Source: a virus
Lineage: Duplodnaviria > Heunggongvirae > Uroviricota > Caudoviricetes
DNA length: 64,000 nt
Virus record (IMG/VR): IMGVR_UViG_2718218131_000011
Coordinates: 20,026-84,025 of that record
Reading direction: 5' to 3' (one strand)
Notes under the pieces: generated by a model
Databases searched by the model: none
Told to the model about the DNA's origin: nothing
Seen by the model: the letters and a program-made list of their open reading frames with translations, nothing else
In this document: one piece after another, positions 42,389-52,239 of the stretch
Numbering within the stretch: the stretch's first letter is position 1
Layout: the number at the start of each line of letters is the position of its first letter
Position numbers and translations under genes: made by a program

Positions 42389-43286
42389 GCACTGGAAAAA
42401 CATTACTATTTATAAACTTTCTCGTGAGGCGGATCTGACCGACTTAGAAGATAAAAAGAAAATGATCCTTTTCACGCCATGCGGTAGTCAGGATATGGCC
42501 AAGTTCGGTTTTGTATCTCCATTTGGTGATAATTCCGAAGTTATCGCTATGCATGGAAATGGTTTTATCCTTGTTGAAGCAAAGCGCGAAACAAAAATTC
42601 TTCCCCCGCCGGTTATCCAGCGAGCTATTCAAGAAAAAATTGAAAAACTTGAGCAAGAACAAGCGCGTAAACTGAAGAAAACAGAGAAGGACTCCCTGAA
42701 AGACGAAGTTCTGCATTCTCTTCTGCCACGGGCTTTTTCAAAGTTTTCTGTTATCCAGGCGATCTACGACGGTTCAACTAAACGTATCTATATCAATGCC
42801 AGCGCGCGGCAGGCAGAGGATATGCTCGCGCTTATGCGTAAGTCTCTGGGTTCTCTTCCTGTTGTTCCCCTGAGTGTTGAAAATCCCATTGAATTAACGC
42901 TGACCGACTGGGTACGTGATGGTAGTGCTCCACAGGGATTTCAAATGGGGGATGCGGCAGAACTTAAGGCAGTGCTTGAGGATGGCGGTATTGCCCGAGT
43001 GAAAAAGCAGGATTTGGGAAGCGATGAAATTTCCACACACCTGGAAGCTGGCAAGCTCGTCACTAAGTTGGCACTCGACTGGCAGAACCGCATTAAATTT
43101 ACACTGGACCATAACTTCAGCCTTACCAGCGTCAAATTTGCGGATGAATTGCTTGAGCAGAACTCTGATATTGATAGTGAAGATGTTGCGCAGCGACTGG
43201 ACGCAGATTTCTTCCTGTTGACCAGTGAAATTTCGTGCCTGGTTGATGCTCTGGTAAATGCCCTTGGTGGAGAGGCTAAGCAGTGA
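42381..43286 (+). CDS. hrdC: RdgC-like recombination-associated protein
   Basis: Start [16 protein letters not shown]; [66 protein letters not shown] near-identical in pattern to E. coli RdgC. Confidence 0.85.
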
Positions 43287-45547
43287 AAGAGCTGTGCTAT
43301 GGATCTGTTTGCAGTGGAATTGAAGCCGCGAGTATTGCCTGGGAACCGTTGGGTATGCGTCCGGCGTGGTTTGCTGAAATCGAGCCTTTTCCATCTGCCG
43401 TTCTTGCGCACCGCTGGCCCCATGTCGCCAACCTTGGCGACATGACAAAACTTGCCAAAAAAGTCCTGGCTGGGGAAATCGAATCCCCTGATGTGCTCGT
43501 CGGGGGTACGCCTTGTCAGGCATTCAGTATCGCGGGCTTACGTGGTGGGCTTGATGATGAACGCGGCGCGCTAACTTTGAAGTATGTGGAGCTTGCAAAT
43601 GCAATTGACGACAAACGGTCTGAGTCCTTCCTCAAACCGACAGTTATCGTCTGGGAAAATGTCCCAGGAGTCCTGTCATCGGCAGATAACGCCTTCGGAT
43701 GTTTCCTTGCCGGATTGGCTGGAGAAGATGCGCCATTTGAACCAGGTGATCGACCTGAATCAGGAAAAAGTAACGCGTTCTGGCGGTGGGATGGCAAAAC
43801 CGGTTGCCATGCTCCAAAGTGGCCGCAGTGTGGTTGTATTTATGGACCGCAGCGAAAGGTGGCCTGGAGAATCCTTGATGCCCAATACTTCGGAGTGGCA
43901 CAACGACGCCGACGCGTGTTTGTTGTCGCAAGTGCTCGAACAGACCTCGATCCCGCAACGGTACTTTTTGAGTTCGAAGGCGTGCGCCGGAATATTGCGC
44001 CGAGCCGAAAAAAGAAGGAAATCGCTTCCGCCATTATTGCAAATGGCGCTGCAATCAGTGGCGAAAGCCTAAATCCATGCCTACACGCTGACATGCCACC
44101 CGGTATGAAATCGACGAAAGCCGTAAACGCTTTCAGGATGGCAGCATTTGGGGAATATATTGACGATGAAACCGCATCGACAGTAAAGGCAAGAGATTTT
44201 AAAGATGCCACTGACCTTGCCGTTTTTAGCAGCACAGGAGCAGGTTTTTGGTCAGAAGGGCATGGTACATTGCGGGCACGTGAGCAAGAAAGCCATGAGC
44301 ATCTTGTTACATTGGCTTTTCCTGAGCGTATGAGCGGTACACAACATGCTGCAACTAAGAATACTTCACCATCTCTAATGGCTAAAAATCCAACAGCTGT
44401 TTGCTATGAAGTAAGAAACGCAGAAGTAGCTGTCCGCCGTCTTACCCCTGTCGAATGTGAAAGGCTGCAAGGTTTTCCTGATGGGCATACGTTGATCCCG
44501 ACGGAAAAGCGTAAAAAAGTTAATTCAGATGAACTGGCATATCTTCGCAATCACTATCCAGATTTAAGCGAAGAAGAGGCCGCGATGCTTGCAGCTGACG
44601 GACCGCGTTACAAAGCGATCGGCAATAGTATGGCAATACCAGTAATGCGCTGGATTGGCGATCGGATTACTAAGGCCGTATGTCGGCAGAAAGAAGGAAG
44701 TGAAACAAAAGAGCGAAAAGTTAAACCAGCGGCAGAATTCGAACGGTCCATATTCAAATGGGCTGGTGGAAAATTTGGTGTTCTGGAACAAATCTTTCGC
44801 TATTTGCCAGAAGGGAAGCGCCTGATTGAACCTTTCGTTGGTGGCGGAGCTGTCTTCATGAATGCCGGATACCAGGAAAATCTGCTAAATGATGTGAATG
44901 CTGACCTGATTAACTTTTACAAGACTCTGCAACGCGAGGCGCATTCACTTATCACTCTGGCACATCGTTTCTTCCAGGACTACAACACACAGGAAGGATA
45001 CCTGGCAGTACGGAATGCGTTTAACAAACAAGTCTATGATGATTTACATCGCGCAGCGGCGTTTTTGTTCCTGAACCGACATTGTTTTAATGGATTGACG
45101 CGCTACAACCAGGCCGGTGAGTTCAATGTCGGGTATGGGAAGTATAAGTCTACGCATTTTCCATTACAGGAGATGGAAGCCTTCCTCGGTGCGGAAGGGC
45201 GGTCTGAGTTTCTATGCGGTGATTTTGCAGCGGTGATTGAAGCTGCCGGAGAAGGAGATGTCATCTTTTGCGATCCGCCGTATGAACCGCTCCCCAATAC
45301 AGAGGGGTTCACGAACTATTCCGGTCATGACTTTAAGTTTGAAGAGCAAAAACGCCTGGTGTCTCTGTTGACGGATGCTCATCGCCGAGGTGCAAAGGTT
45401 CTCATTACTAACAGTGGCGCGCCAAACATCAGAGAACTTTATCAGGACAGTGGCTTCAGAGTGGAACCTCTTTTTGCCAGACGTTCTGTGTCTTGTAAGG
45501 GAGACACTCGTGGTGTTGCTCATGACGTTATAGCAATATTGCTCTAA
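43283..45547 (+). CDS. dmt: bifunctional DNA methyltransferase Dmt (N-terminal C5-cytosine MTase, C-terminal Dam-like N6-adenine MTase)
   Basis: 754 aa; [12 protein letters not shown] and ENV motifs in N-terminal half; Dam-like motifs including DPPYEP in C-terminal half; GTG start overlapping hrdC stop. Confidence 0.85.
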
Positions 45548-45554
45548 TAGATAT
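45538..45554 (+). promoter_or_regulatory. C1 operator-like site at the dmt 3' end / accessory-region junction
   Basis: ATTGCTCTAATAGATAT, two mismatches to consensus. Confidence 0.35.
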
Positions 45555-45732
45555 ATTAGTGTAATATCGAATCAATGAATCGTGATTTTTAGAGCGATTT
45601 AGCTGTTAGCCGCGACAGGCGCGGCGGTAAGCATGGCTGGGCCTAGTCCTCCCAGACAAACCACCGAGTTGCCAGGTTGACCATGCGCCTAAGTGGCAAC
45701 TCCGAAGTGCGTAACGAGCTTCCATCCAGTTT

Positions 45733-45758
45733 GCCCATCTTCGGGTGGGCGTTTTTTT
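45733..45758 (+). terminator. intrinsic terminator
   Basis: GCCCATCTTCGGGTGGGC hairpin followed by TTTTTTT. Confidence 0.65.
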
Positions 45759-45911
45759 CAGGGGTTTCGTCATGGTTAGCGACTTTGCGGCGGTTTAGCG
45801 AAAAACGCCGTAAACCCTCGCCTAATGCGGGCGGGTATATAAGGCGAAAAGCCAACAGGGCTTTAAAAAAATCATTACGGTGTTAGCATAAAAAGCCTGT
45901 ATCAATGAGCG

Positions 45912-47087
45912 GTGACTATGTTAAGAGCAACAAAAGTACGCATTTACCCGACACCAGAACAGGCAGAGTACCTCAATGCCCAGTTCGGTGCAGTGCGCTT
46001 TGCGTACAACAAAGCTCTTCACATCAAAAAACATGCTTACCAGCGACATGGAGTAAATTTAAGTCCGCGTAACGATCTGAAACCGCTGCTTGCAGTGGCA
46101 AAGAAATCCCGCAGGTATGGATGGCTTAAAGAATATGATTCTATTGCGTTGCAACAGGCGGTAATTAATCTTGATGTGGCATTTTCCAACTTTTTTAATC
46201 CGAAGCTGAAAGCGCGGTTCCCGACGTTTAAACGTAAACACGGAAAACAATCGAGCTATCACTGTGTCGGGATTAAGGTGCTGGATAATGCCATCAAAAT
46301 CCCAAAACTGTCCCTAATAGAAGCACGCCTTCACCGTGAACTTCATGGAAAGCTGAAAAGCATCACTATCACCTGTTCAGCAACGGGGAAATACTATGCT
46401 TCAATTCTCTGTGATGATGGCATGGAAGCTCCGGCAAAACCCACGTTGATATCAACAGTTACTGGCCTAGATATGGGATTATCGCACTTTGCCATCAAGT
46501 CTGATGGGGTAAAAATTGCAAATCCCCGCCATCTCATCAATGCCAGCCGTAATCTGCGACGCAAACAAAAAGCCTTATCCCGCAAGCAAAAGGGAAGCGC
46601 GAATCGTAAAAAGGCCACAATCCGTCTGGCAGCGTTACACGAACGGGTGGCTAATGCCCGTGCTGATTTTCAACACAAGCTCTCTCGTGCAATTGTTGAC
46701 GAAAACCAAGCGGTAATTGTCGAGATGCTGAAAACAGCCAACATGATGAAAAACCACAATCTGGCAAGAGCGATAGGTGATGCAGGCTGGCATAGCTTCA
46801 TCACAAAGCTGGAGTACAAGGCAGCGGAAAAAGGCGTTCACCTAGTAAAACTCGACCAGTGGTTTGCCAGTTCGAAAGCCTGCTATTGTTGTGGTTACAA
46901 AATGCCGGAAATGCCGCTTCATAAACGCATCTGGCGATGCCCTGAATGTGGAGCAGAGCACGACCGCGATATCAATGCGGCACTCAACATCCGGCAAAAA
47001 GGAATACTGGAACTACAGGCGGCGGGACTCGTCGTCTCCGCCCATGGAGGCCAGCGTAAATCCGTCGCACAGACGGTTGTGGCATGA
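45912..47087 (+). CDS. tnpB: TnpB (OrfB) RNA-guided nuclease-type transposon protein, IS200/IS605 family
   Basis: 391 aa; N-terminal MLRATKVRIYPTPEQ...YNKAL; C-terminal zinc finger CYCCG...CPECG with RuvC-like region. Confidence 0.85.
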   Translation: MTMLRATKVRIYPTPEQAEYLNAQFGAVRFAYNKALHIKKHAYQRHGVNLSPRNDLKPLLAVAKKSRRYGWLKEYDSIALQQAVINLDVAFSNFFNPKLKARFPTFKRKHGKQSSYHCVGIKVLDNAIKIPKLSLIEARLHRELHGKLKSITITCSATGKYYASILCDDGMEAPAKPTLISTVTGLDMGLSHFAIKSDGVKIANPRHLINASRNLRRKQKALSRKQKGSANRKKATIRLAALHERVANARADFQHKLSRAIVDENQAVIVEMLKTANMMKNHNLARAIGDAGWHSFITKLEYKAAEKGVHLVKLDQWFASSKACYCCGYKMPEMPLHKRIWRCPECGAEHDRDINAALNIRQKGILELQAAGLVVSAHGGQRKSVAQTVVA

Positions 47088-47776
47088 GAAGTGGGAAGCC
47101 TCGCCCGACAGGGCGGGGAGCAGTCACAAACTGACCATTAAAGTAAATGCAAACGATGATCTGATGATGGTTGCGGCCTAAGAAGCCTGACACCACGGGG
47201 TTGTCCCCGTCTGTGTATTAGGGAACGAGGAGGCATAACAGGCAGGGGCGCTGGTTTGATTAACCAGATGAACGAGAAGGGGCCATCTTCTGGTCAGCGT
47301 CCTTACCTGTTACGTCCTTTTTCATTCAGCGTAACAGCCGGTTCTTAACAGCCTTTGGGTAGAGTTCCTCGTATTTACGAGTATATTCCGTCATGCTGAA
47401 GGCGCTAATCACGCTGGAAGCTAGGGGGGGATCCCCTGTTACCGAATTGCAGCCAGGGCGCGGGTGTAGTGGTTTATTGATTGTTACGGCGCATTCTGGG
47501 CTGTACTAAATTTCTGCGCCTAATACTACTACACTTGCCGTTTACTGATGTGTGGTATGTTGCATATGGGCAACTGCAAAATGGCATCTGAATCGATCGC
47601 AGTTTGGCATTCGAATCGATCATGATTTGGCATCCATCTCCGATCACAGTTTGGCATCACAATCGATCACGATTTGGCATGCTTCCGATCATTGATTGGC
47701 ATCCTGCCAGTCACTCCGGGAATTAACTCTTTTCACCACAGTCTCCATTGCCGTGTTTAAACCAGTGGAGACGTCA

Positions 47777-49342
47777 ATGTCCAGAAAGAGAAAATCCAGG
47801 AGCACTATGGAAACCTGTTTTAAGATTCTTCAGCTCAAGTTCGACAAGAAGCTGACTAACCGTTGTATCGGACTGACGTTACACATCAGCGCCTCAACCG
47901 TTTTTGAGGTTCTTGCCCGCTTCAAAGCCTCTTCTCTGTCATGGCCATTACCTGCTGATATATCCCATGACACGCTGGAGAAACTCATTTTTCCGCCCAA
48001 AGACACCTTTGCATCAGAGCTTGTAATGCCTGACATGTTGTACCTCGATACGGAAATGAGAAAACCAGGTGTGACGCGGCAACTGTTGTGGATGGAATAC
48101 AAGGCACAGGCGGGTAACAAAGCGATGGGATACTCGCACTTCTGCCGTTGCTACCGGGAGTGGAAAAAAACGCGACGTCTCTCCATGCGCCAGGAGCATC
48201 GTGCCGGCGAAAAGCTTTTTATCGACTTCTGTGGTCCTACGGTTCCTGTTATTAATCCGGACACCGGTGAGATACGCCGCGTGGCAATCTTCGTGGCCGT
48301 AATGGGGGCGTCCAACTATACCTACGTTGAAGCGTGCGAAGGTCAGGACATGATGTCATGGTTAAATGCCCACAGCCGTTGCCTGACCTTCCTGGGCGGC
48401 GTACCGAAGCTGCTCATCCCCGATAACCTCAGAAGCGCAGTGAAAAAGGCCGATCGATATGAGCCTGTCATCAACGACAGTTATCAGGCACTGGCTGAGC
48501 ACTATGGCACGGTTATCATCCCGGCCCGACCACGCAAACCTAAAGATAAACCAAAAGCAGAAAACGGCGTCCTCATCGTCGAACGATGGCTTCTTGCCCG
48601 CATCCGTAATGAAACCTTCCACACGCTCAGGGCGCTGAATGCGCGCCTTAGGGAGTTACTGACAGACATGAATAACCGGCCAATGAAGGGGTACGGCAAT
48701 CAAACCCGTGCAGAACGCTTCCGCATACTGGATGCGCCAGCACTCTCTCCGCTGCCTCTGGCACCTTATGAATACACGGAATACAAAGCTGTGAAGGTTG
48801 GCCCTGACTACCACGTTGAATATGCCCGTCACTGGTACTCCGTTCCACACGAACTGGTCGGTCAGCGTCTGTCACTGAAGGCGGGGCAGTCGGTGGTACA
48901 GCTCTGGCACAAGGGGCAGTGTGTGGCGCAACATCCGCGCAGCACACATGAATATAAACACACAACCAATCCGCTTCACATGCCAGAGCGCCACCGGCAG
49001 CACGGGACATGGACACCGGAACGCCTGATCGAGCAGGGAAAACGTACGGGCCCGTCCACAGGCCGGGTGGTTGAATCCATGCTGAAGGCAAAACCCCATC
49101 CGGAACTGGCTTATCGTGCAGTTCTGGGGCTGCTGGCACTTCAGAAAAAATACGGCCCGGAACGGCTGGAAAAGGCCTGTTACGTTGCCCTGCACTATAA
49201 CGCCCCTGACAGACGCTTTATCGACAATCTGCTGCGTCACCATCGGGAGAACCTGGAGCTTCCATTATCCCGCCAGGGCGAACAACATCCGGCATATGCT
49301 TCAGAGCATGAAAACCTGCGTGGTCCGGGCTACTACCACTGA
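47777..49342 (+). CDS. istA: IS21-family transposase IstA
   Basis: Start at MSRKRK with GGAG RBS; HTH N-terminus and DDE-type core. Confidence 0.85.
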   Translation: MSRKRKSRSTMETCFKILQLKFDKKLTNRCIGLTLHISASTVFEVLARFKASSLSWPLPADISHDTLEKLIFPPKDTFASELVMPDMLYLDTEMRKPGVTRQLLWMEYKAQAGNKAMGYSHFCRCYREWKKTRRLSMRQEHRAGEKLFIDFCGPTVPVINPDTGEIRRVAIFVAVMGASNYTYVEACEGQDMMSWLNAHSRCLTFLGGVPKLLIPDNLRSAVKKADRYEPVINDSYQALAEHYGTVIIPARPRKPKDKPKAENGVLIVERWLLARIRNETFHTLRALNARLRELLTDMNNRPMKGYGNQTRAERFRILDAPALSPLPLAPYEYTEYKAVKVGPDYHVEYARHWYSVPHELVGQRLSLKAGQSVVQLWHKGQCVAQHPRSTHEYKHTTNPLHMPERHRQHGTWTPERLIEQGKRTGPSTGRVVESMLKAKPHPELAYRAVLGLLALQKKYGPERLEKACYVALHYNAPDRRFIDNLLRHHRENLELPLSRQGEQHPAYASEHENLRGPGYYH

Positions 49343-49358
49343 CAGAAGGAACAACAGT

Positions 49359-50114
49359 ATGAGTGATAACCTGTTAAACAAACTGACCCAACTGAAACTC
49401 CCGGCGATGGCCGGGAGCCTGATACGGCAGCGGGAAACGCCTCAGACCTACGACGAACTGTCGTTCGAGGAAAGGCTGACGCTGCTGGTTGATGACGAGC
49501 TTCTGAGCAGGGAAAACAGCCGTGTGGCACGGTTGAGAAAAAATGCCGGCCTGAAATACCAGGCAACACCGGAAGGGCTGCGCTATCCGGCCTCAAGAGG
49601 TCTGCGGGCTGAACAGATGAGAGAACTGCTGAACGGCCACTACATAACCCACAGGAAAAACCTGCTGATAACCGGTCCGACAGGATGTGGCAAGAGCTGG
49701 ATAGCCAATGCGCTGGGCGAACAGGCATGTCGACAGAAACACAGCGTCCGGTACTGTAGAACCGGGCGATTACTGGAACAACTGGCTCAGGGACGTGTTG
49801 ATGGCAGCTGGCTGAAATATCTGAAACAGTTGCAAAAAATACAGGTTCTAATCCTGGACGATCTGGGGCTGGAACAGTTAAGTAACGCCCAGTGTAATGA
49901 CCTTCTGGAGCTCATAGAGGATCGTTACGGACAAAGCAGCACGATAGTGGTAAGCCAGTTCCCGGTAGATAAATGGCATGGTCTGATGGAGAACCCAACA
50001 ACAGCAGATGCCATCCTGGACAGACTGGTACATAACTCACACCGGGTGGTCCTTCAGGGAGAGTCACTGAGGAAAAATCCCCCGGTAGTGGAAAGCAGCG
50101 AAAAAACGCGTTAA
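49359..50114 (+). CDS. istB: IS21-family helper ATPase IstB
   Basis: Start MSDNLLNKLTQLKLP with AAGGA RBS; Walker A GPTGCGKS; Walker B VLILDDLG. Confidence 0.85.
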   Translation: MSDNLLNKLTQLKLPAMAGSLIRQRETPQTYDELSFEERLTLLVDDELLSRENSRVARLRKNAGLKYQATPEGLRYPASRGLRAEQMRELLNGHYITHRKNLLITGPTGCGKSWIANALGEQACRQKHSVRYCRTGRLLEQLAQGRVDGSWLKYLKQLQKIQVLILDDLGLEQLSNAQCNDLLELIEDRYGQSSTIVVSQFPVDKWHGLMENPTTADAILDRLVHNSHRVVLQGESLRKNPPVVESSEKTR

Positions 50115-50577
50115 AAAGCGGTAGAAAAAGTTAAGTTCCCGGTTGATCGAATGGATGCGAATCGCTGATCGGACTTCGATGCCAATCCGTGATCGAATAG
50201 AGCGGAATACGCAGGCAACACACTCAAGCCTGATGCAGCACGGTCAGGTAGGGGACGCCGACCTAATGTCTCGCCCTGCAAGGGCGGACGAAAGTAGATC
50301 ACTATTCCGCGCAGCTATTTAGAAAGAACAGGTATTGAATTACCTGGAGAACAACTTACTTACGTTTCCGCCACACCTTCGCTAGTTACTTTATGATGAA
50401 TGATGGTAATATTCTGGTATTGTAACGAGTGCTCAGATATACTTACATCTAAATAACAATGATATATGTTCAATTTAACCTTGAATATTTTGTAATGTTA
50501 CACGACTTTAAAATTTAGAAGAAGAGGATTCGGTTGAATCCGATATTAAATCTGAGACAGGAATATAAGGTTACACG

Positions 50578-51513
50578 ATGAAGCTTAAAAAACTACAATC
50601 TCTTGATTTTGTGAATGATTTTATGAGTCACCTAGAAACTGATTTTGAAAAAGAATTATTCACAGCTTGTTTGCGAAATTATGCATCACATGGCAACCCA
50701 TTACGTTTTCATAACTTTGCATTTTCAATTCGCGAGCTAATAAAGCATATTATCGAGAAAAAATCTCCGAATGATAAATTATTACAAGCATCGTGGTATA
50801 AGAGAGAACATGAACATTACGAAATATCTAGAAGACAGCGTTTAAAATACTGTTCTCAAGCTAAAATTTCAGATGCGTACTTGGGGGAAGAGTTCCTGGA
50901 GGAGTCGAATGAAAGAATAGATGAGATGCTTAAGCTTTATTTCTTCTTAAATAAATATACGCATATAACAGAGAAATATATGCATCCATCACCTCAAGAG
51001 TTCTTCCTGAAGGCCAAACAAATACTGCAGATCGCTACAGAAATACTAAATGGTATACATATTTGTAGAGATGAATTAATTCGTACTCTCGAAGATAAAA
51101 TTAGAAATGCAGTTATTGACACGGCGGTAAGCTCTATGCCTGAAAACCTAGTGACTATCGCGAATCATGCGTATGTAGATTACACTGAAGTCGAAGAATT
51201 TGGAATCACGTCGATTGATGATGAGTACATCAATATATATGCTTCCGGTACTGTCTATGTTACTCAAGAATATGGTTCTAGGAATGATGGGGTTAGCCTA
51301 GAAGAAAGTTATCCGTTCACGTTGCACATGGCTTCTCACTTAGACTCTCCTGAAACATTTGAAGTCATATCTGAAGCTTTAGAGGTAGACACTTCATCGT
51401 GGTACGATGATGGGGAGCAGGAGGATCAAATGATGGATATGGAAAGAAATGAAATTCATCGAATATCTGTTGCACCCCCAGACTTTGAGATGGATGACAA
51501 TGTACCATTCTAA
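50578..51513 (+). CDS. hypothetical cargo protein ending in an SSB C-terminal-tail-like peptide
   Basis: 311-aa ORF in AT-rich DNA with AT-rich promoter-like leader; no recognisable catalytic motif; C-terminus VAPPDFEMDDNVPF versus [14 protein letters not shown]. Confidence 0.6.
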   Translation: MKLKKLQSLDFVNDFMSHLETDFEKELFTACLRNYASHGNPLRFHNFAFSIRELIKHIIEKKSPNDKLLQASWYKREHEHYEISRRQRLKYCSQAKISDAYLGEEFLEESNERIDEMLKLYFFLNKYTHITEKYMHPSPQEFFLKAKQILQIATEILNGIHICRDELIRTLEDKIRNAVIDTAVSSMPENLVTIANHAYVDYTEVEEFGITSIDDEYINIYASGTVYVTQEYGSRNDGVSLEESYPFTLHMASHLDSPETFEVISEALEVDTSSWYDDGEQEDQMMDMERNEIHRISVAPPDFEMDDNVPF

Positions 51514-51699
51514 CATAAAGAAACATAGGCTAGTAGCGATGAAGTGCGGTAAAAATGGCTAAAACTAGATAAGTAATGGCAATCTGTGCCAATGAGTAAA
51601 TAACACAACCTATTAGATCTGCATTTATTTTTCAAAGGGATCATAATCGCACAGCCACCGGTTCAAGCCCGGTAGGGGACACCTTATTTGGTAGTTGTA

Positions 51700-52239
51700 C
51701 GGCGTATGGCACATGCGTCGATGAAATCAAAACAGACGATGTGCTGCGTATTTTTGTAGACCACGCTGCATTTGACGTTAGTGGGTTTGATCACTCTTTG
51801 AGTATCCTTATGAACCTTCAGCGCCGACCGTTCCGTATGAGGCCAGAACGTTGATCGATGACGGATTGGTTACCATTGATTCGGGGAATATTTCGGTAAC
51901 CCCATACAGACGGACGCCGGTACCAGCAACCGAATTCGCAGCTGAATTGCGTAAGAGTGACGTTTTTATCGTTACGCATCCCGAAAGCCTTGGATTAACT
52001 GTTCTTGAGGCGGCAATGTGTGGAGCGTTGATATTAACGCTCCACACATTGCCTTCCGCCGGATCGCCTGGATTTGGTGAACCATATGGTTATCAAGTCG
52101 CGGATTGATTGGGATGAGGTTATTGCTCGCGTTGATCGCGTGAAAAATGCTGAAAAGGTCCAGTGTCACACCTGGTCGGCAATCGCGGGAACGATGATTG
52201 AGACGTTTGCCGCGCCGAAATCACTGCGCGGCTTATAAC
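51700..52239 (+). pseudogene. remnant of a GT4-type glycosyltransferase (C-terminal part only, frameshifted)
   Basis: Frame fragments ...SDVFIVTHPESLGLTVLEAAMCGA... then in another frame ...DLVNHMVIKSRIDWDEVIARVDRVKNAEKVQCHTWSAIAGTMIETFAAPKSLRGL*; no N-terminal domain; interrupted by a palindrome. Confidence 0.5.
52012..52053. repeat. 42-bp perfect palindrome inside the glycosyltransferase remnant
   Basis: GGCAATGTGTGGAGCGTT-GATATT-AACGCTCCACACATTGCC (18-bp arms). Confidence 0.9.

What the first reader, a model, noticed from the sequence alone, without database searches (positions are those of the whole stretch)
45600..47250. Solo TnpB element downstream of dmt with structured ends and no TnpA
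A 391-aa TnpB with zinc finger and RuvC-like region lies after a hairpin-rich left flank and an intrinsic terminator, with no Y1 transposase. Such elements encode an omega-RNA overlapping the tnpB 3' end. The insertion coincides with a C1-operator-like site at the dmt stop, consistent with it having displaced the downstream P1 genes.
Basis: partly seen in the sequence, partly recalled or inferred. Interest (0 to 1): 0.45.

Follow-up and report, generated by a model that had tools for sequence, protein, structure and literature searches.

The report
tnpA-less ISEc46-type TnpB insertion sequence
This is an ordinary, already-annotated kind of small mobile element (an IS200/IS605-family insertion sequence that has lost its transposase gene but keeps its RNA-guided nuclease TnpB and guide RNA), cleanly inserted into a P1-like phage-plasmid; it did not displace any phage genes.

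Summary
Window 45799-47127 (+) is a 1,329-bp IS200/IS605-family element. It sits, with no target duplication, between P1 positions 68922 and 68923, directly 3' of TTTAG.

- **Gene content:** it carries one intact tnpB (45918-47087, 389 aa). The protein matches ISDra2 TnpB at E 2.5e-79, and the D-E-D catalytic triad and CxxC...CxxC zinc finger are intact.
- **Ends:** the same imperfect hairpin lies near both ends.
- **Guide RNA:** a covariation-supported omega-RNA scaffold ends exactly at the right end. A covariance model built without the window sequence scores 136 bits (E 2e-37) there.
- **Origin:** the element is a tnpA-deleted relative of ISEc46 (81% nt identity). Full ISEc46 copies carry a divergent Y1 tnpA.
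- **No transposase here:** no tnpA exists anywhere in the 64-kb window.

P1 sequence resumes immediately after the element. The missing trnA-to-dbn genes begin 336 bp further on, at a separate replacement that contains an ISSso4-like IS21 element.

The predicted guide plus TAM matches the empty site found in 569 PLSDB plasmids; only 17 carry the insertion.

Verdict: real, correctly called TnpB, ordinary. The displacement claim is wrong. Low interest.

The parts
45795..45798 (+). Target/transposon-adjacent motif (TAM) TTAG. Here it reads T-TTAG; it belongs to the P1 target, not to the element.
   Evidence: The P1 empty site reads ...GCGGCGGTTTAG|AAACTGACC.... Five E. coli-group copies are preceded by TTTAG, TTCAG, TTCAG, ATCAG and CTTAG. 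About 30 gammaproteobacterial relatives are all preceded by TTAG with otherwise unrelated flanks.
45799..47127 (+). The whole insertion sequence: 1,329 bp, a tnpA-less ISEc46-family (IS200/IS605) element with no target-site duplication.
   Evidence: BLAST against P1 gives window 43001-45798 = P1 up to 68922, and 47128-47463 = P1 from 68923. Copies at other sites match only 45794/45797-47127.
45799..45917 (+). Left end (LE). It holds the subterminal imperfect hairpin at 45816-45836 (CCTCGCCT-AATGC-GGGCGGGT) and a second hairpin at 45848-45864.
   Evidence: The LE is 88% identical to the LE of full ISEc46 (L009 1990-2073). The hairpin arms CCTCGCCC/GGGCGGGG are the same as at the RE, and the motif occurs only twice in the window. 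The window copy has two substitutions relative to the family consensus, at 45823 and 45836.
45876..45884 (+). Junction of the internal tnpA deletion, with a GGTGTT microhomology.
   Evidence: Element positions 1-86 align to ISEc46 L009 1990-2073 and positions 78-1329 to L009 2501-3752. The roughly 427 bp in between in ISEc46 hold tnpA (2061-2486, minus strand). GGTGTT is present at both borders in the full element.
45918..47087 (+). tnpB, encoding an RNA-guided endonuclease of 389 aa. An in-frame GTG at 45912 would give 391 aa.
   Evidence: Pfam architecture. ISDra2 TnpB match at E 2.5e-79 over residues 5-382. Catalytic D187/E271/D353 and the zinc-finger cysteines are present. dN/dS is 0.07-0.16 against four other copies. 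RefSeq annotates WP_039022915.1 as 'RNA-guided endonuclease TnpB family protein' at the identical sequence.
46993..47127 (+). Predicted omega-RNA (reRNA) scaffold. Helices: 47017-23/47031-37; 47041-45/47091-95; 47049-55/47079-84; 47062-66/47072-76; and the RE hairpin.
   Evidence: RNAalifold on 68 distinct relatives gives 33 pairs, 19 of them with compensatory changes. 97.8% of cells are paired versus 32-53% when partners are slid; the covariation score is 0.452 versus at most 0.136. A covariance model built from 66 relatives without the window sequence hits only here: 136.2 bits, E 2.2e-37, ending exactly at 47127. The 5' end of the RNA is not determined.
47099..47127 (+). Right end (RE): subterminal hairpin 47099-47118 (CCTCGCCC-GACA-GGGCGGGG, with a conserved T.G mismatch) plus the tail AGCAGTCAC, which ends the element.
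   Evidence: The sequence is near-invariant in about 75 relatives, and homology stops sharply after GTCAC. Compensatory changes occur in the stem, e.g. C-G to A-U in 13 sequences.
47128..47147 (+). Predicted guide segment of the omega-RNA (AAACTGACCATTAAAG-TAAA). This is native P1 DNA adjoining the RE.
   Evidence: Assigned by position, following Karvelis et al. 2021 (PMC8612924): the guide is the roughly 16 nt of flank after the RE. The flanks differ in every copy. The 16-mer is unique in the window. Together with TTTAG it reconstitutes the P1 empty site.
45538..45768 (+). NOT part of the element. These are native P1 features: the C1 operator Oban(ab)/Pban promoters at the dmt stop, and the dicF-like region (about 45662-45768) with its terminator-like hairpin at 45732-45751 followed by a T-run.
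   Evidence: P1 annotation (NC_005856: 68651-68696 and 68791-68892). This stretch is 98.3% identical to P1. It is conserved in P7 and SJ46, which lack the IS; in D6 only the part from the terminator hairpin onward aligns. The terminator scan is.

Best explanation
A non-autonomous IS200/IS605-family insertion sequence, an internally tnpA-deleted relative of ISEc46, inserted by single-strand 'peel-and-paste' transposition. It landed 3' of a TTAG motif in the leader of the P1 ban operon, between the dicF-like region and the downstream conserved leader.

It keeps both TnpA-recognised subterminal hairpins, an intact tnpB, and an omega-RNA encoded by the last ~110-135 nt of the element.

By inference from ISDra2 and Geobacillus elements:
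1. The omega-RNA is transcribed through the right end into about 16-20 nt of P1 flank (AAACTGACCATTAAAG...).
2. The RNA loads onto TnpB.
3. TnpB then cuts any DNA carrying TTAG followed by that flank, which is the element-free version of this same locus.
4. Recombinational repair from an occupied copy restores or spreads the element.

Movement to new sites would need a Y1 TnpA supplied in trans, for example from a chromosomal ISEc46.

**Shown here:** the boundaries, the clean insertion, the tnpA deletion, an intact TnpB under purifying selection, and the conserved RNA structure ending at the RE.

**Inferred only:** expression, nuclease activity, TAM use by TnpB, and trans-mobilisation.
For: - Clean insertion relative to P1 with no duplication.
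- Copies at unrelated sites share exactly these ends, are preceded by T[T/C]AG, and have unrelated right flanks.
- The LE and tnpB-RE parts are collinear with full ISEc46, which carries a divergent tnpA annotated 'IS200/IS605-like element ISEc46 family transposase'.
- 36 of 84 related loci have a tnpA homologue in the flank upstream of tnpB (in 33 of them on the opposite strand) and the rest have none, so both forms are common.
- No tnpA and no second tnpB are in the window.
- TnpB domain architecture, close homology to ISDra2 TnpB, and intact catalytic and zinc residues.
- dN/dS of 0.07-0.16.
- Omega-RNA covariation and an independent covariance-model hit ending at the RE.
- The mechanism of TnpB/reRNA/TAM and of homing-like retention comes from Karvelis 2021 (PMC8612924) and Meers 2023 (PMC10055086).
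Against: - There are no expression data.
- The simple sigma-70 scan found no promoter in the LE, so tnpB/omega-RNA transcription may depend on read-through from the C1-repressed ban promoters, past the dicF-like terminator.
- This copy has two substitutions in the LE hairpin (45823, 45836). It also has one broken pair (G47049-A47084) at the base of an omega-RNA helix that is paired in 67 of 68 sequences. Mobility or RNA fit may therefore be reduced.
- The TAM is inferred from insertion sites (TnpA specificity), not from nuclease assays.
- I could not establish whether copies nearly identical to this one occur at other sites. The closest copy found elsewhere is 92% identical.
Confidence: 0.85

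Rival explanations
1. One reading: the TnpB element's insertion at a C1-operator site displaced the downstream P1 genes, and 45600-45911 is its structured left end.
For: P1 genes trnA to dbn are indeed missing downstream, and no tRNA is found in the window.
Against: - P1 68922/68923 are directly joined across the element, and P1 homology continues for 336 bp after it.
- The missing block starts at 47464 and is replaced by 4.26 kb that includes an ISSso4-like IS21 element.
- The operator and the dicF-like hairpins are annotated native P1 features; both are present in IS-free P1, P7 and SJ46, and the terminator hairpin also in D6.
- Other plasmids with the identical insertion have a different downstream arrangement, with an IS3-family element.
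Confidence: 0.03
2. A dead relic: the element is immobile and its TnpB and omega-RNA are no longer expressed or active. It is simply carried along by a minor lineage of P1-like plasmids.
For: - There is no tnpA in cis and no recognisable promoter.
- The LE hairpin has two substitutions, and one omega-RNA pair is broken in this copy.
- All 17 PLSDB plasmids and 13 E. coli genomes with this junction could be a single vertical lineage.
Against: - The ORF is full length, with all catalytic and zinc residues.
- dN/dS is 0.07-0.16 between tnpA-less copies.
- The omega-RNA matches the family model at 136 bits over its full length.
- tnpA-less copies sit at several unrelated sites, so the type has been mobilised.
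Confidence: 0.12
3. A domesticated, nuclease-independent TnpB (TldR-like RNA-guided repressor) that regulates the P1 ban leader.
For: It lies inside a regulatory leader, in the same orientation as the operon.
Against: - The RuvC D-E-D triad and zinc finger are intact, and the protein is full length relative to ISDra2 TnpB.
- It has normal IS ends and sits at many unrelated loci elsewhere.
- 569 of 586 comparable plasmids lack it.
Confidence: 0.02

Closest known systems
ISEc46 (IS200/IS605 family, E. coli). Full copy: NZ_OY754421.1 1613324-1615086 (locus L009 1990-3752, 1,763 bp).
   Same: - Same LE (88% over 86 bp).
- Identical 40-bp post-stop RE, including the hairpin and the GTCAC end.
- Same T[T/C]AG target and same tnpB orientation.
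- TnpB is 87.7% identical at the amino-acid level.

   Different: ISEc46 carries a divergent 141-aa Y1 tnpA between the LE and tnpB; here about 427 bp including tnpA are absent. The tnpB DNA is only about 80-81% identical, so by the usual ISfinder convention (my knowledge, not tested) it would be a distinct IS, not an ISEc46 isoform. A tnpA-less form of true ISEc46 (98.7% identical) also exists in phage RCS47 downstream of repL.
ISDra2 TnpB-reRNA/omega-RNA system of Deinococcus radiodurans (Karvelis 2021, PMC8612924; structures 8H1J, 8EXA)
   Same: - Same protein family and length class, E 2.5e-79, with D191/E278/D361 equivalents conserved.
- The guide RNA is encoded by the 3' end of tnpB plus the RE, with the guide taken from the flank.
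- The TAM is the TnpA target motif.

   Different: The TAM here is inferred as TTAG/TCAG rather than TTGAT. tnpA is absent here, and no biochemical data exist. I did not compare the omega-RNA sequence or structure with the ISDra2 RNA directly.
Non-autonomous tnpB-only IS605-family elements (IS1341-type; ISGst elements of Geobacillus stearothermophilus; Meers 2023, PMC10055086)
   Same: tnpB plus omega-RNA between conserved LE and RE, no tnpA, and presumed mobilisation in trans. That paper reports that only about 25% of tnpB genes have a nearby tnpA. Here, 36 of 84 related loci have one.
   Different: A different clade and host. Here the derivation from a tnpA-bearing element by an internal deletion between GGTGTT repeats is directly visible.
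IS608 of Helicobacter pylori (paradigm for Y1 TnpA peel-and-paste transposition)
   Same: Insertion 3' of a fixed tetranucleotide with no duplication, and same-strand subterminal imperfect hairpins at both ends (mechanism cited).
   Different: Target is TTAC versus TTAG, the sequences are unrelated, and IS608 is autonomous.

Membership tests
IS200/IS605 family insertion sequence | Inserts 3' of a specific tetra/pentanucleotide without target-site duplication | tested here: met
   P1 empty site ...GGTTTAG|AAACTG... versus the occupied site, with no duplicated bases. T[T/C]AG precedes all copies examined.
IS200/IS605 family insertion sequence | No terminal inverted repeats; subterminal imperfect palindromes on the same strand at LE and RE | tested here: met
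   CCTCGCC(C/T)-loop-GGGCGGG(G/T) at 45816-45836 and 47099-47118, both on the + strand and the only two occurrences in the window. The T.G mismatch is conserved in 64 of 68 sequences.
IS200/IS605 family insertion sequence | Encodes a Y1 HUH transposase TnpA (autonomous members) | tested here: not met
   tblastn of ISEc46 TnpA against the window gives a best E of 1.2. The tnpA segment is deleted relative to full ISEc46. This copy is therefore a non-autonomous derivative.
IS200/IS605 family insertion sequence | Strand-specific single-strand excision and integration by TnpA | not testable with these tools
   Needs an excision or transposition assay with TnpA supplied in trans.
TnpB / OMEGA RNA-guided nuclease | HTH/WED-REC + RuvC + zinc-finger (TNB) architecture with the catalytic D-E-D | tested here: met
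   Pfam PF12323 + PF01385 + PF07282. Alignment to ISDra2 TnpB. D187, E271, D353, C324, C327, C343 and C346 present.
TnpB / OMEGA RNA-guided nuclease | A structured omega-RNA encoded by the tnpB 3' end and the RE, ending at the transposon boundary | tested here: met
   Five helices with 19 compensatory pairs. A covariance model built without this sequence scores 136.2 bits and ends at 47127. Transcription was not tested.
TnpB / OMEGA RNA-guided nuclease | TAM-dependent, guide-dependent dsDNA cleavage | not testable with these tools
   Needs a plasmid interference assay or in vitro cleavage.
ISEc46 itself (same IS name) | Near-identity to the reference element (ISfinder convention: isoforms are more than 95% nt / more than 98% aa identical; from my knowledge) | tested here: not met
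   80-81% nt and 87.7% aa identity to the ISEc46 tnpB of L009, with tnpA absent. ISfinder itself could not be queried.
Any Rfam RNA family (e.g. a curated omega-RNA or IS605-orfB motif) | A match at the family's gathering score | tested here: not met
   An Rfam 15 scan at E <= 1 of 44500-48500 gave only sub-threshold tmRNA-like hits, driven mainly by the tag-like frame in native P1 flank (the alignment also spans the last ~50 nt of the element); nothing matched the omega-RNA scaffold as such.

The most novel reading that the evidence does not exclude
The element acts as an RNA-guided gene drive or competition weapon between P1-like phage-plasmids.

Its omega-RNA guide (AAACTGACCATTAAAG...) plus the TTTAG TAM is exactly the sequence of the unoccupied locus. 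That locus is present in wild-type P1, P7 and SJ46, in D6 with one mismatch at guide position 5, and in 569 of 586 comparable PLSDB plasmids.

A cell carrying this plasmid would therefore cut a superinfecting or incompatible IS-free P1 genome. It would then either exclude that genome or convert it to IS-bearing by recombination. Expression might be coupled to prophage induction, because the element sits downstream of the C1-repressed ban promoters.
Probability: 0.2. Interest if true: 0.5.

Novelty: new member of a known kind. Interest (0 to 1): 0.15.

Why it matters
It matters little for basic biology. It is a standard non-autonomous IS605-family TnpB element that RefSeq already annotates as TnpB in identical plasmids.

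Its practical value is threefold:
- It corrects the annotation of this window. The operator, the dicF-like RNA and the terminator are P1's own features, and the gene loss downstream has a different cause.
- It gives a compact, well-delimited E. coli-native TnpB/omega-RNA pair, with an inferred TTAG/TCAG TAM and a covariation-supported RNA model, that could be tested directly.
- It is a natural case in which a TnpB guide targets the 'wild-type' allele of a well-studied phage. That would make TnpB-mediated homing or exclusion between phage genomes easy to test.

Tried and rejected
- **Rfam scan for a known omega-RNA family:** no match. The only hits were sub-threshold tmRNA_permuted/beta_tmRNA hits, driven mainly by the tag-like frame in the P1 flank.
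- **ARAGORN:** no tRNA or tmRNA in the window. In P1 it found only the three known tRNAs.
- **Simple sigma-70 scan:** no promoter in the LE. The only hit is inside tnpB, at a rate no better than shuffles.
- **MFE fold of the single sequence:** weak (z = -1.9). The structure claim therefore rests on covariation, not on energy.
- **Long-range 3-bp helix proposed by RNAalifold (alignment A2 columns 34-36 with 216-218):** no compensatory change. I dropped it from the model.
- **Stretch GGTGGAAGCCCTCGCC just before trnA in P1/P7/D6/SJ46:** it looked like the RE, but the covariance model finds nothing in P1, P7, D6 or SJ46. I treat it as chance.
- **Solo 38-bp RE matches in several plasmids (e.g. 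L006):** these are truncated remnants of the RCS47-type ISEc46 insertion, with the same right flank, cut by an IS3 element. They are not independent mini-elements.
- **Literature search for ISEc46:** only resistome and mobilome lists. Nothing was found on TnpB in P1-like phage-plasmids.
- **Number of insertion sites among near-identical copies:** I could not determine this, because the identity bands of the BLAST summaries include short partial matches.
Full report
**What is in the sequence**

The window is collinear with phage P1: P1 21057 to 84293 maps to window 1 to 64000. The dmt gene ends at 45547.

An ORF runs from 45912 (GTG) or 45918 (ATG) to 47087 on the + strand. It encodes a 391- or 389-aa protein with Pfam HTH_OrfB_IS605, OrfB_IS605 and Cas12f1-like_TNB domains.

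Against PDB sequences, this protein aligns over residues 5-382 with ISDra2 TnpB (8H1J, 8BF8/8EXA) at E about 2.5e-79. The residues equivalent to ISDra2 D191, E278 and D361 are D187, E271 and D353 in 391-aa numbering. The four zinc-finger cysteines C324, C327, C343 and C346 are also present. An identical sequence in RefSeq plasmid NZ_CP101271.1 is annotated 'RNA-guided endonuclease TnpB family protein', starting at the ATG. The 'TnpB' call is therefore correct.

**Boundaries**

BLAST against P1 shows two matches:
- window 43001-45798 equals P1 up to 68922, at 98.3% identity
- window 47128-47463 equals P1 from 68923 onward

In P1 the site reads ...GCGGCGGTTTAG|AAACTGACCATTAAAGTAAATGC. In the window, the same two halves flank 45799-47127. 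The element is therefore 1,329 bp, inserted with no target duplication 3' of TTTAG.

Copies in other plasmids and phages share exactly this segment with unrelated flanks:
- L007, next to an antirestriction gene
- L008, between psiA and ardA
- RCS47 (L002), after repL

Each is preceded by TTCAG, ATCAG or TTAG-type motifs. Each ends in ...GGGGAGCAGTCAC.

About 30 relatives from other Gammaproteobacteria are all preceded by TTAG. About 75 relatives show homology that stops sharply after GTCAC.

The same imperfect palindrome lies near both ends on the + strand, at 45816-45836 and 47099-47118. It reads CCTCGCCC-loop-GGGCGGGG with a conserved T.G mismatch. The motif occurs nowhere else in the window. 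These are the hallmarks of IS200/IS605 elements.

**Relation to ISEc46 and the missing transposase**

Chromosomal E. coli relatives (e.g. L009) carry, between the same LE and tnpB, a divergent 141-aa gene that PGAP annotates as 'IS200/IS605-like element ISEc46 family transposase'.

The window element aligns to this full element in two blocks:
- positions 1-86 to the LE (88% identity)
- positions 78-1329 to the tnpB-RE part (81% identity)

The roughly 427 bp holding tnpA are missing. GGTGTT is present at both borders in the full element, which indicates a deletion between short repeats.

tblastn with ISEc46 TnpA finds nothing in the 64-kb window (best E 1.2), and there is only one tnpB. Among 84 related loci, 36 have a tnpA homologue in the upstream flank (in 33 of them on the opposite strand) and the others do not. 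This matches the published observation that most tnpB genes lie in tnpA-less elements presumed to be mobilised in trans (Meers et al., PMC10055086).

TnpB is under purifying selection between copies, with dN/dS of 0.07-0.16.

**Omega-RNA**

Rfam 15 has no matching family. I therefore collected 80 loci encoding relatives at 57-88% aa identity from one-genome-per-species contigs. I anchored them at the RE and aligned 68 distinct 190-nt tails.

RNAalifold predicts five helices, given here in window coordinates:
- 47017-23 with 47031-37
- 47041-45 with 47091-95
- 47049-55 with 47079-84
- 47062-66 with 47072-76
- the RE hairpin, 47099-47118

Of the 33 predicted pairs, 19 show compensatory double changes.

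Pair counting supports the structure:

| Measure | Proposed structure | Controls |
|---|---|---|
| Cells paired | 97.8% | 32-53% with partners slid |
| Covariation score | 0.452 | at most 0.136 slid; 0.19 shuffled |
| Shuffles reaching the observed values | 0 of 500 | - |

A covariance model built from 66 relatives without the window sequence hits the window once. The hit is at 46993-47127 (+), scores 136.2 bits (E 2.2e-37), is full length, and ends exactly at the RE. The model finds nothing in P1, P7, D6 or SJ46.

In this copy one base pair, G47049-A47084, is broken.

By analogy with ISDra2, the roughly 150-nt reRNA matches the tnpB 3' end and RE, and its last ~16 nt come from the flank (PMC8612924). 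On that basis the guide here would be AAACTGACCATTAAAG(TAAA), at 47128-47147. This 16-mer is unique in the window. At the occupied site it is preceded by GTCAC rather than by the TAM, so the occupied locus should not be a target.

- The C1 operator at the dmt stop is P1's bivalent Oban (Op72ab, P1 68667-68694), together with the ban promoters.
- The hairpin-rich stretch and the terminator-like hairpin (45732-45751) with its following T-run are P1's annotated dicF-like region, 68791-68892.
- The dicF-like stretch is conserved in IS-free P1, P7 and SJ46, and the terminator hairpin also in D6.
- The insertion point is about 230 bp downstream of the operator.
- P1 DNA continues after the element to 47463. 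Then P1 69293-73138 (trnA, trnT, plp, upl, tciABC, trnI, ban, most of dbn) is replaced by 47464-51722. That replacement contains an ISSso4-like IS21-family element at about 47572-50218.
- A plasmid with the identical TnpB insertion has a different downstream arrangement, with an IS3-family element.

The TnpB element therefore displaced nothing.

**Distribution**

| Collection | Insertion at this site | Empty site |
|---|---|---|
| PLSDB plasmids | 17 | 569 |
| Complete E. coli genomes (5,426) | 13 | not counted |

Sequences of this IS family occur in 801 of the 5,426 E. coli genomes, mostly as chromosomal ISEc46 at about 81% identity. In the phage collection, the P1-type genomes that match across this locus (18 of the 20 matching records) align only through P1-derived flanks covering 18-29% of the query, consistent with an empty site; the only other matches are two records of RCS47, which carries a tnpA-less true ISEc46 elsewhere.

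**Mechanism and confidence**

Best explanation (0.85): a non-autonomous ISEc46-family element. Its TnpB-omega-RNA would cut the element-free allele (TTAG plus flank) and so favour retention or spread by recombination. It depends on a TnpA in trans for transposition.

Structure, boundaries, derivation and conservation are shown here. Expression, cleavage, TAM use by TnpB and mobilisation are inferred.

Caveats:
- No promoter was recognised in the LE.
- The LE hairpin has two substitutions.

**Novelty**

This is an ordinary member of a well-characterised kind, already annotated as TnpB in public records. It is not described individually in the searchable literature.

The one mildly interesting implication concerns its guide. 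Together with the TAM, the guide matches the wild-type locus of P1-like genomes. A resident copy could therefore act against, or home into, incoming IS-free P1 relatives. This was not tested.

Noticed in passing
window 47128-47181 (native P1 DNA; P1 NC_005856 68923-68976): A tmRNA-tag-like reading frame with no start codon sits immediately right of the IS...AAU GCA AAC GAU GAU CUG AUG AUG GUU GCG GCC UAA = (N)ANDDLMMVAA*. Rfam tmRNA_permuted scores 33 bits in the window and 24 bits in intact P1, against a gathering score of 47. The frame is conserved in P1, P7, D6 and SJ46; the only changes are synonymous (GTA to GTT) or Val to Ala (P7). ARAGORN finds no tmRNA, and no paper on it was found. 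The IS sits 14 nt upstream of the 'GCA' codon.
   Followed up: partly
window 47464-51722: P1 69293-73138 (tRNA-Asn, tRNA-Thr, plp, upl, tciABC, tRNA-Ile, ban helicase, most of dbn) is replaced by 4.26 kb. This holds an ISSso4-like IS21-family element (about 47572-50218, with istA/istB). No PLSDB plasmid covers at least 80% of this arrangement.
   Followed up: partly
window 47575-47700: A run of repeated ...GATCG...TTTGGCAT... units lies upstream of istA. These are probably the multiple terminal IstA-binding repeats of the IS21-family element. This was seen by eye.
   Followed up: no
window 47195-47210 versus P1 L001 ~4350-4400: Relative to P1, P7, D6 and SJ46, the window lacks about 36 bp (GTATGAGTCGTCCCCCGTCAAAAAATCGACCGCAGAG) between two CACGGGG...CCCCGT repeats in the conserved ban-leader region. 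This looks like a deletion between direct repeats.
   Followed up: no
L002 (phage RCS47 56143-57472), L006 (pEF7-18-58_1) and other plasmids: A tnpA-less copy of true ISEc46 (98.7% identical to chromosomal ISEc46) has the same deletion junction as the window's 81%-diverged element. The tnpA-less architecture is therefore either old, recurrent at the GGTGTT repeats, or spread by recombination. 38-bp solo RE remnants with the RCS47 right flank occur in several plasmids, truncated by an IS3 element.
   Followed up: partly
window 45848-45864: A second LE hairpin, AAAGCC-AACAG-GGCTTT, is flanked by A/T runs. Other copies keep the stem with different loops. In full ISEc46 it lies next to the 3' end of the divergent tnpA, so it may be a relic (bidirectional) terminator.
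   Followed up: no
L011 (JAHEOE010000054.1, labelled 'Candidatus Paceibacterota' MAG): A copy of the element with tnpA (TnpA 92% aa identical to ISEc46 TnpA; TnpB 85% aa identical to the window's) sits on a 3.3-kb contig binned as a CPR bacterium. This is probably a binning contaminant from an enterobacterium.
   Followed up: no
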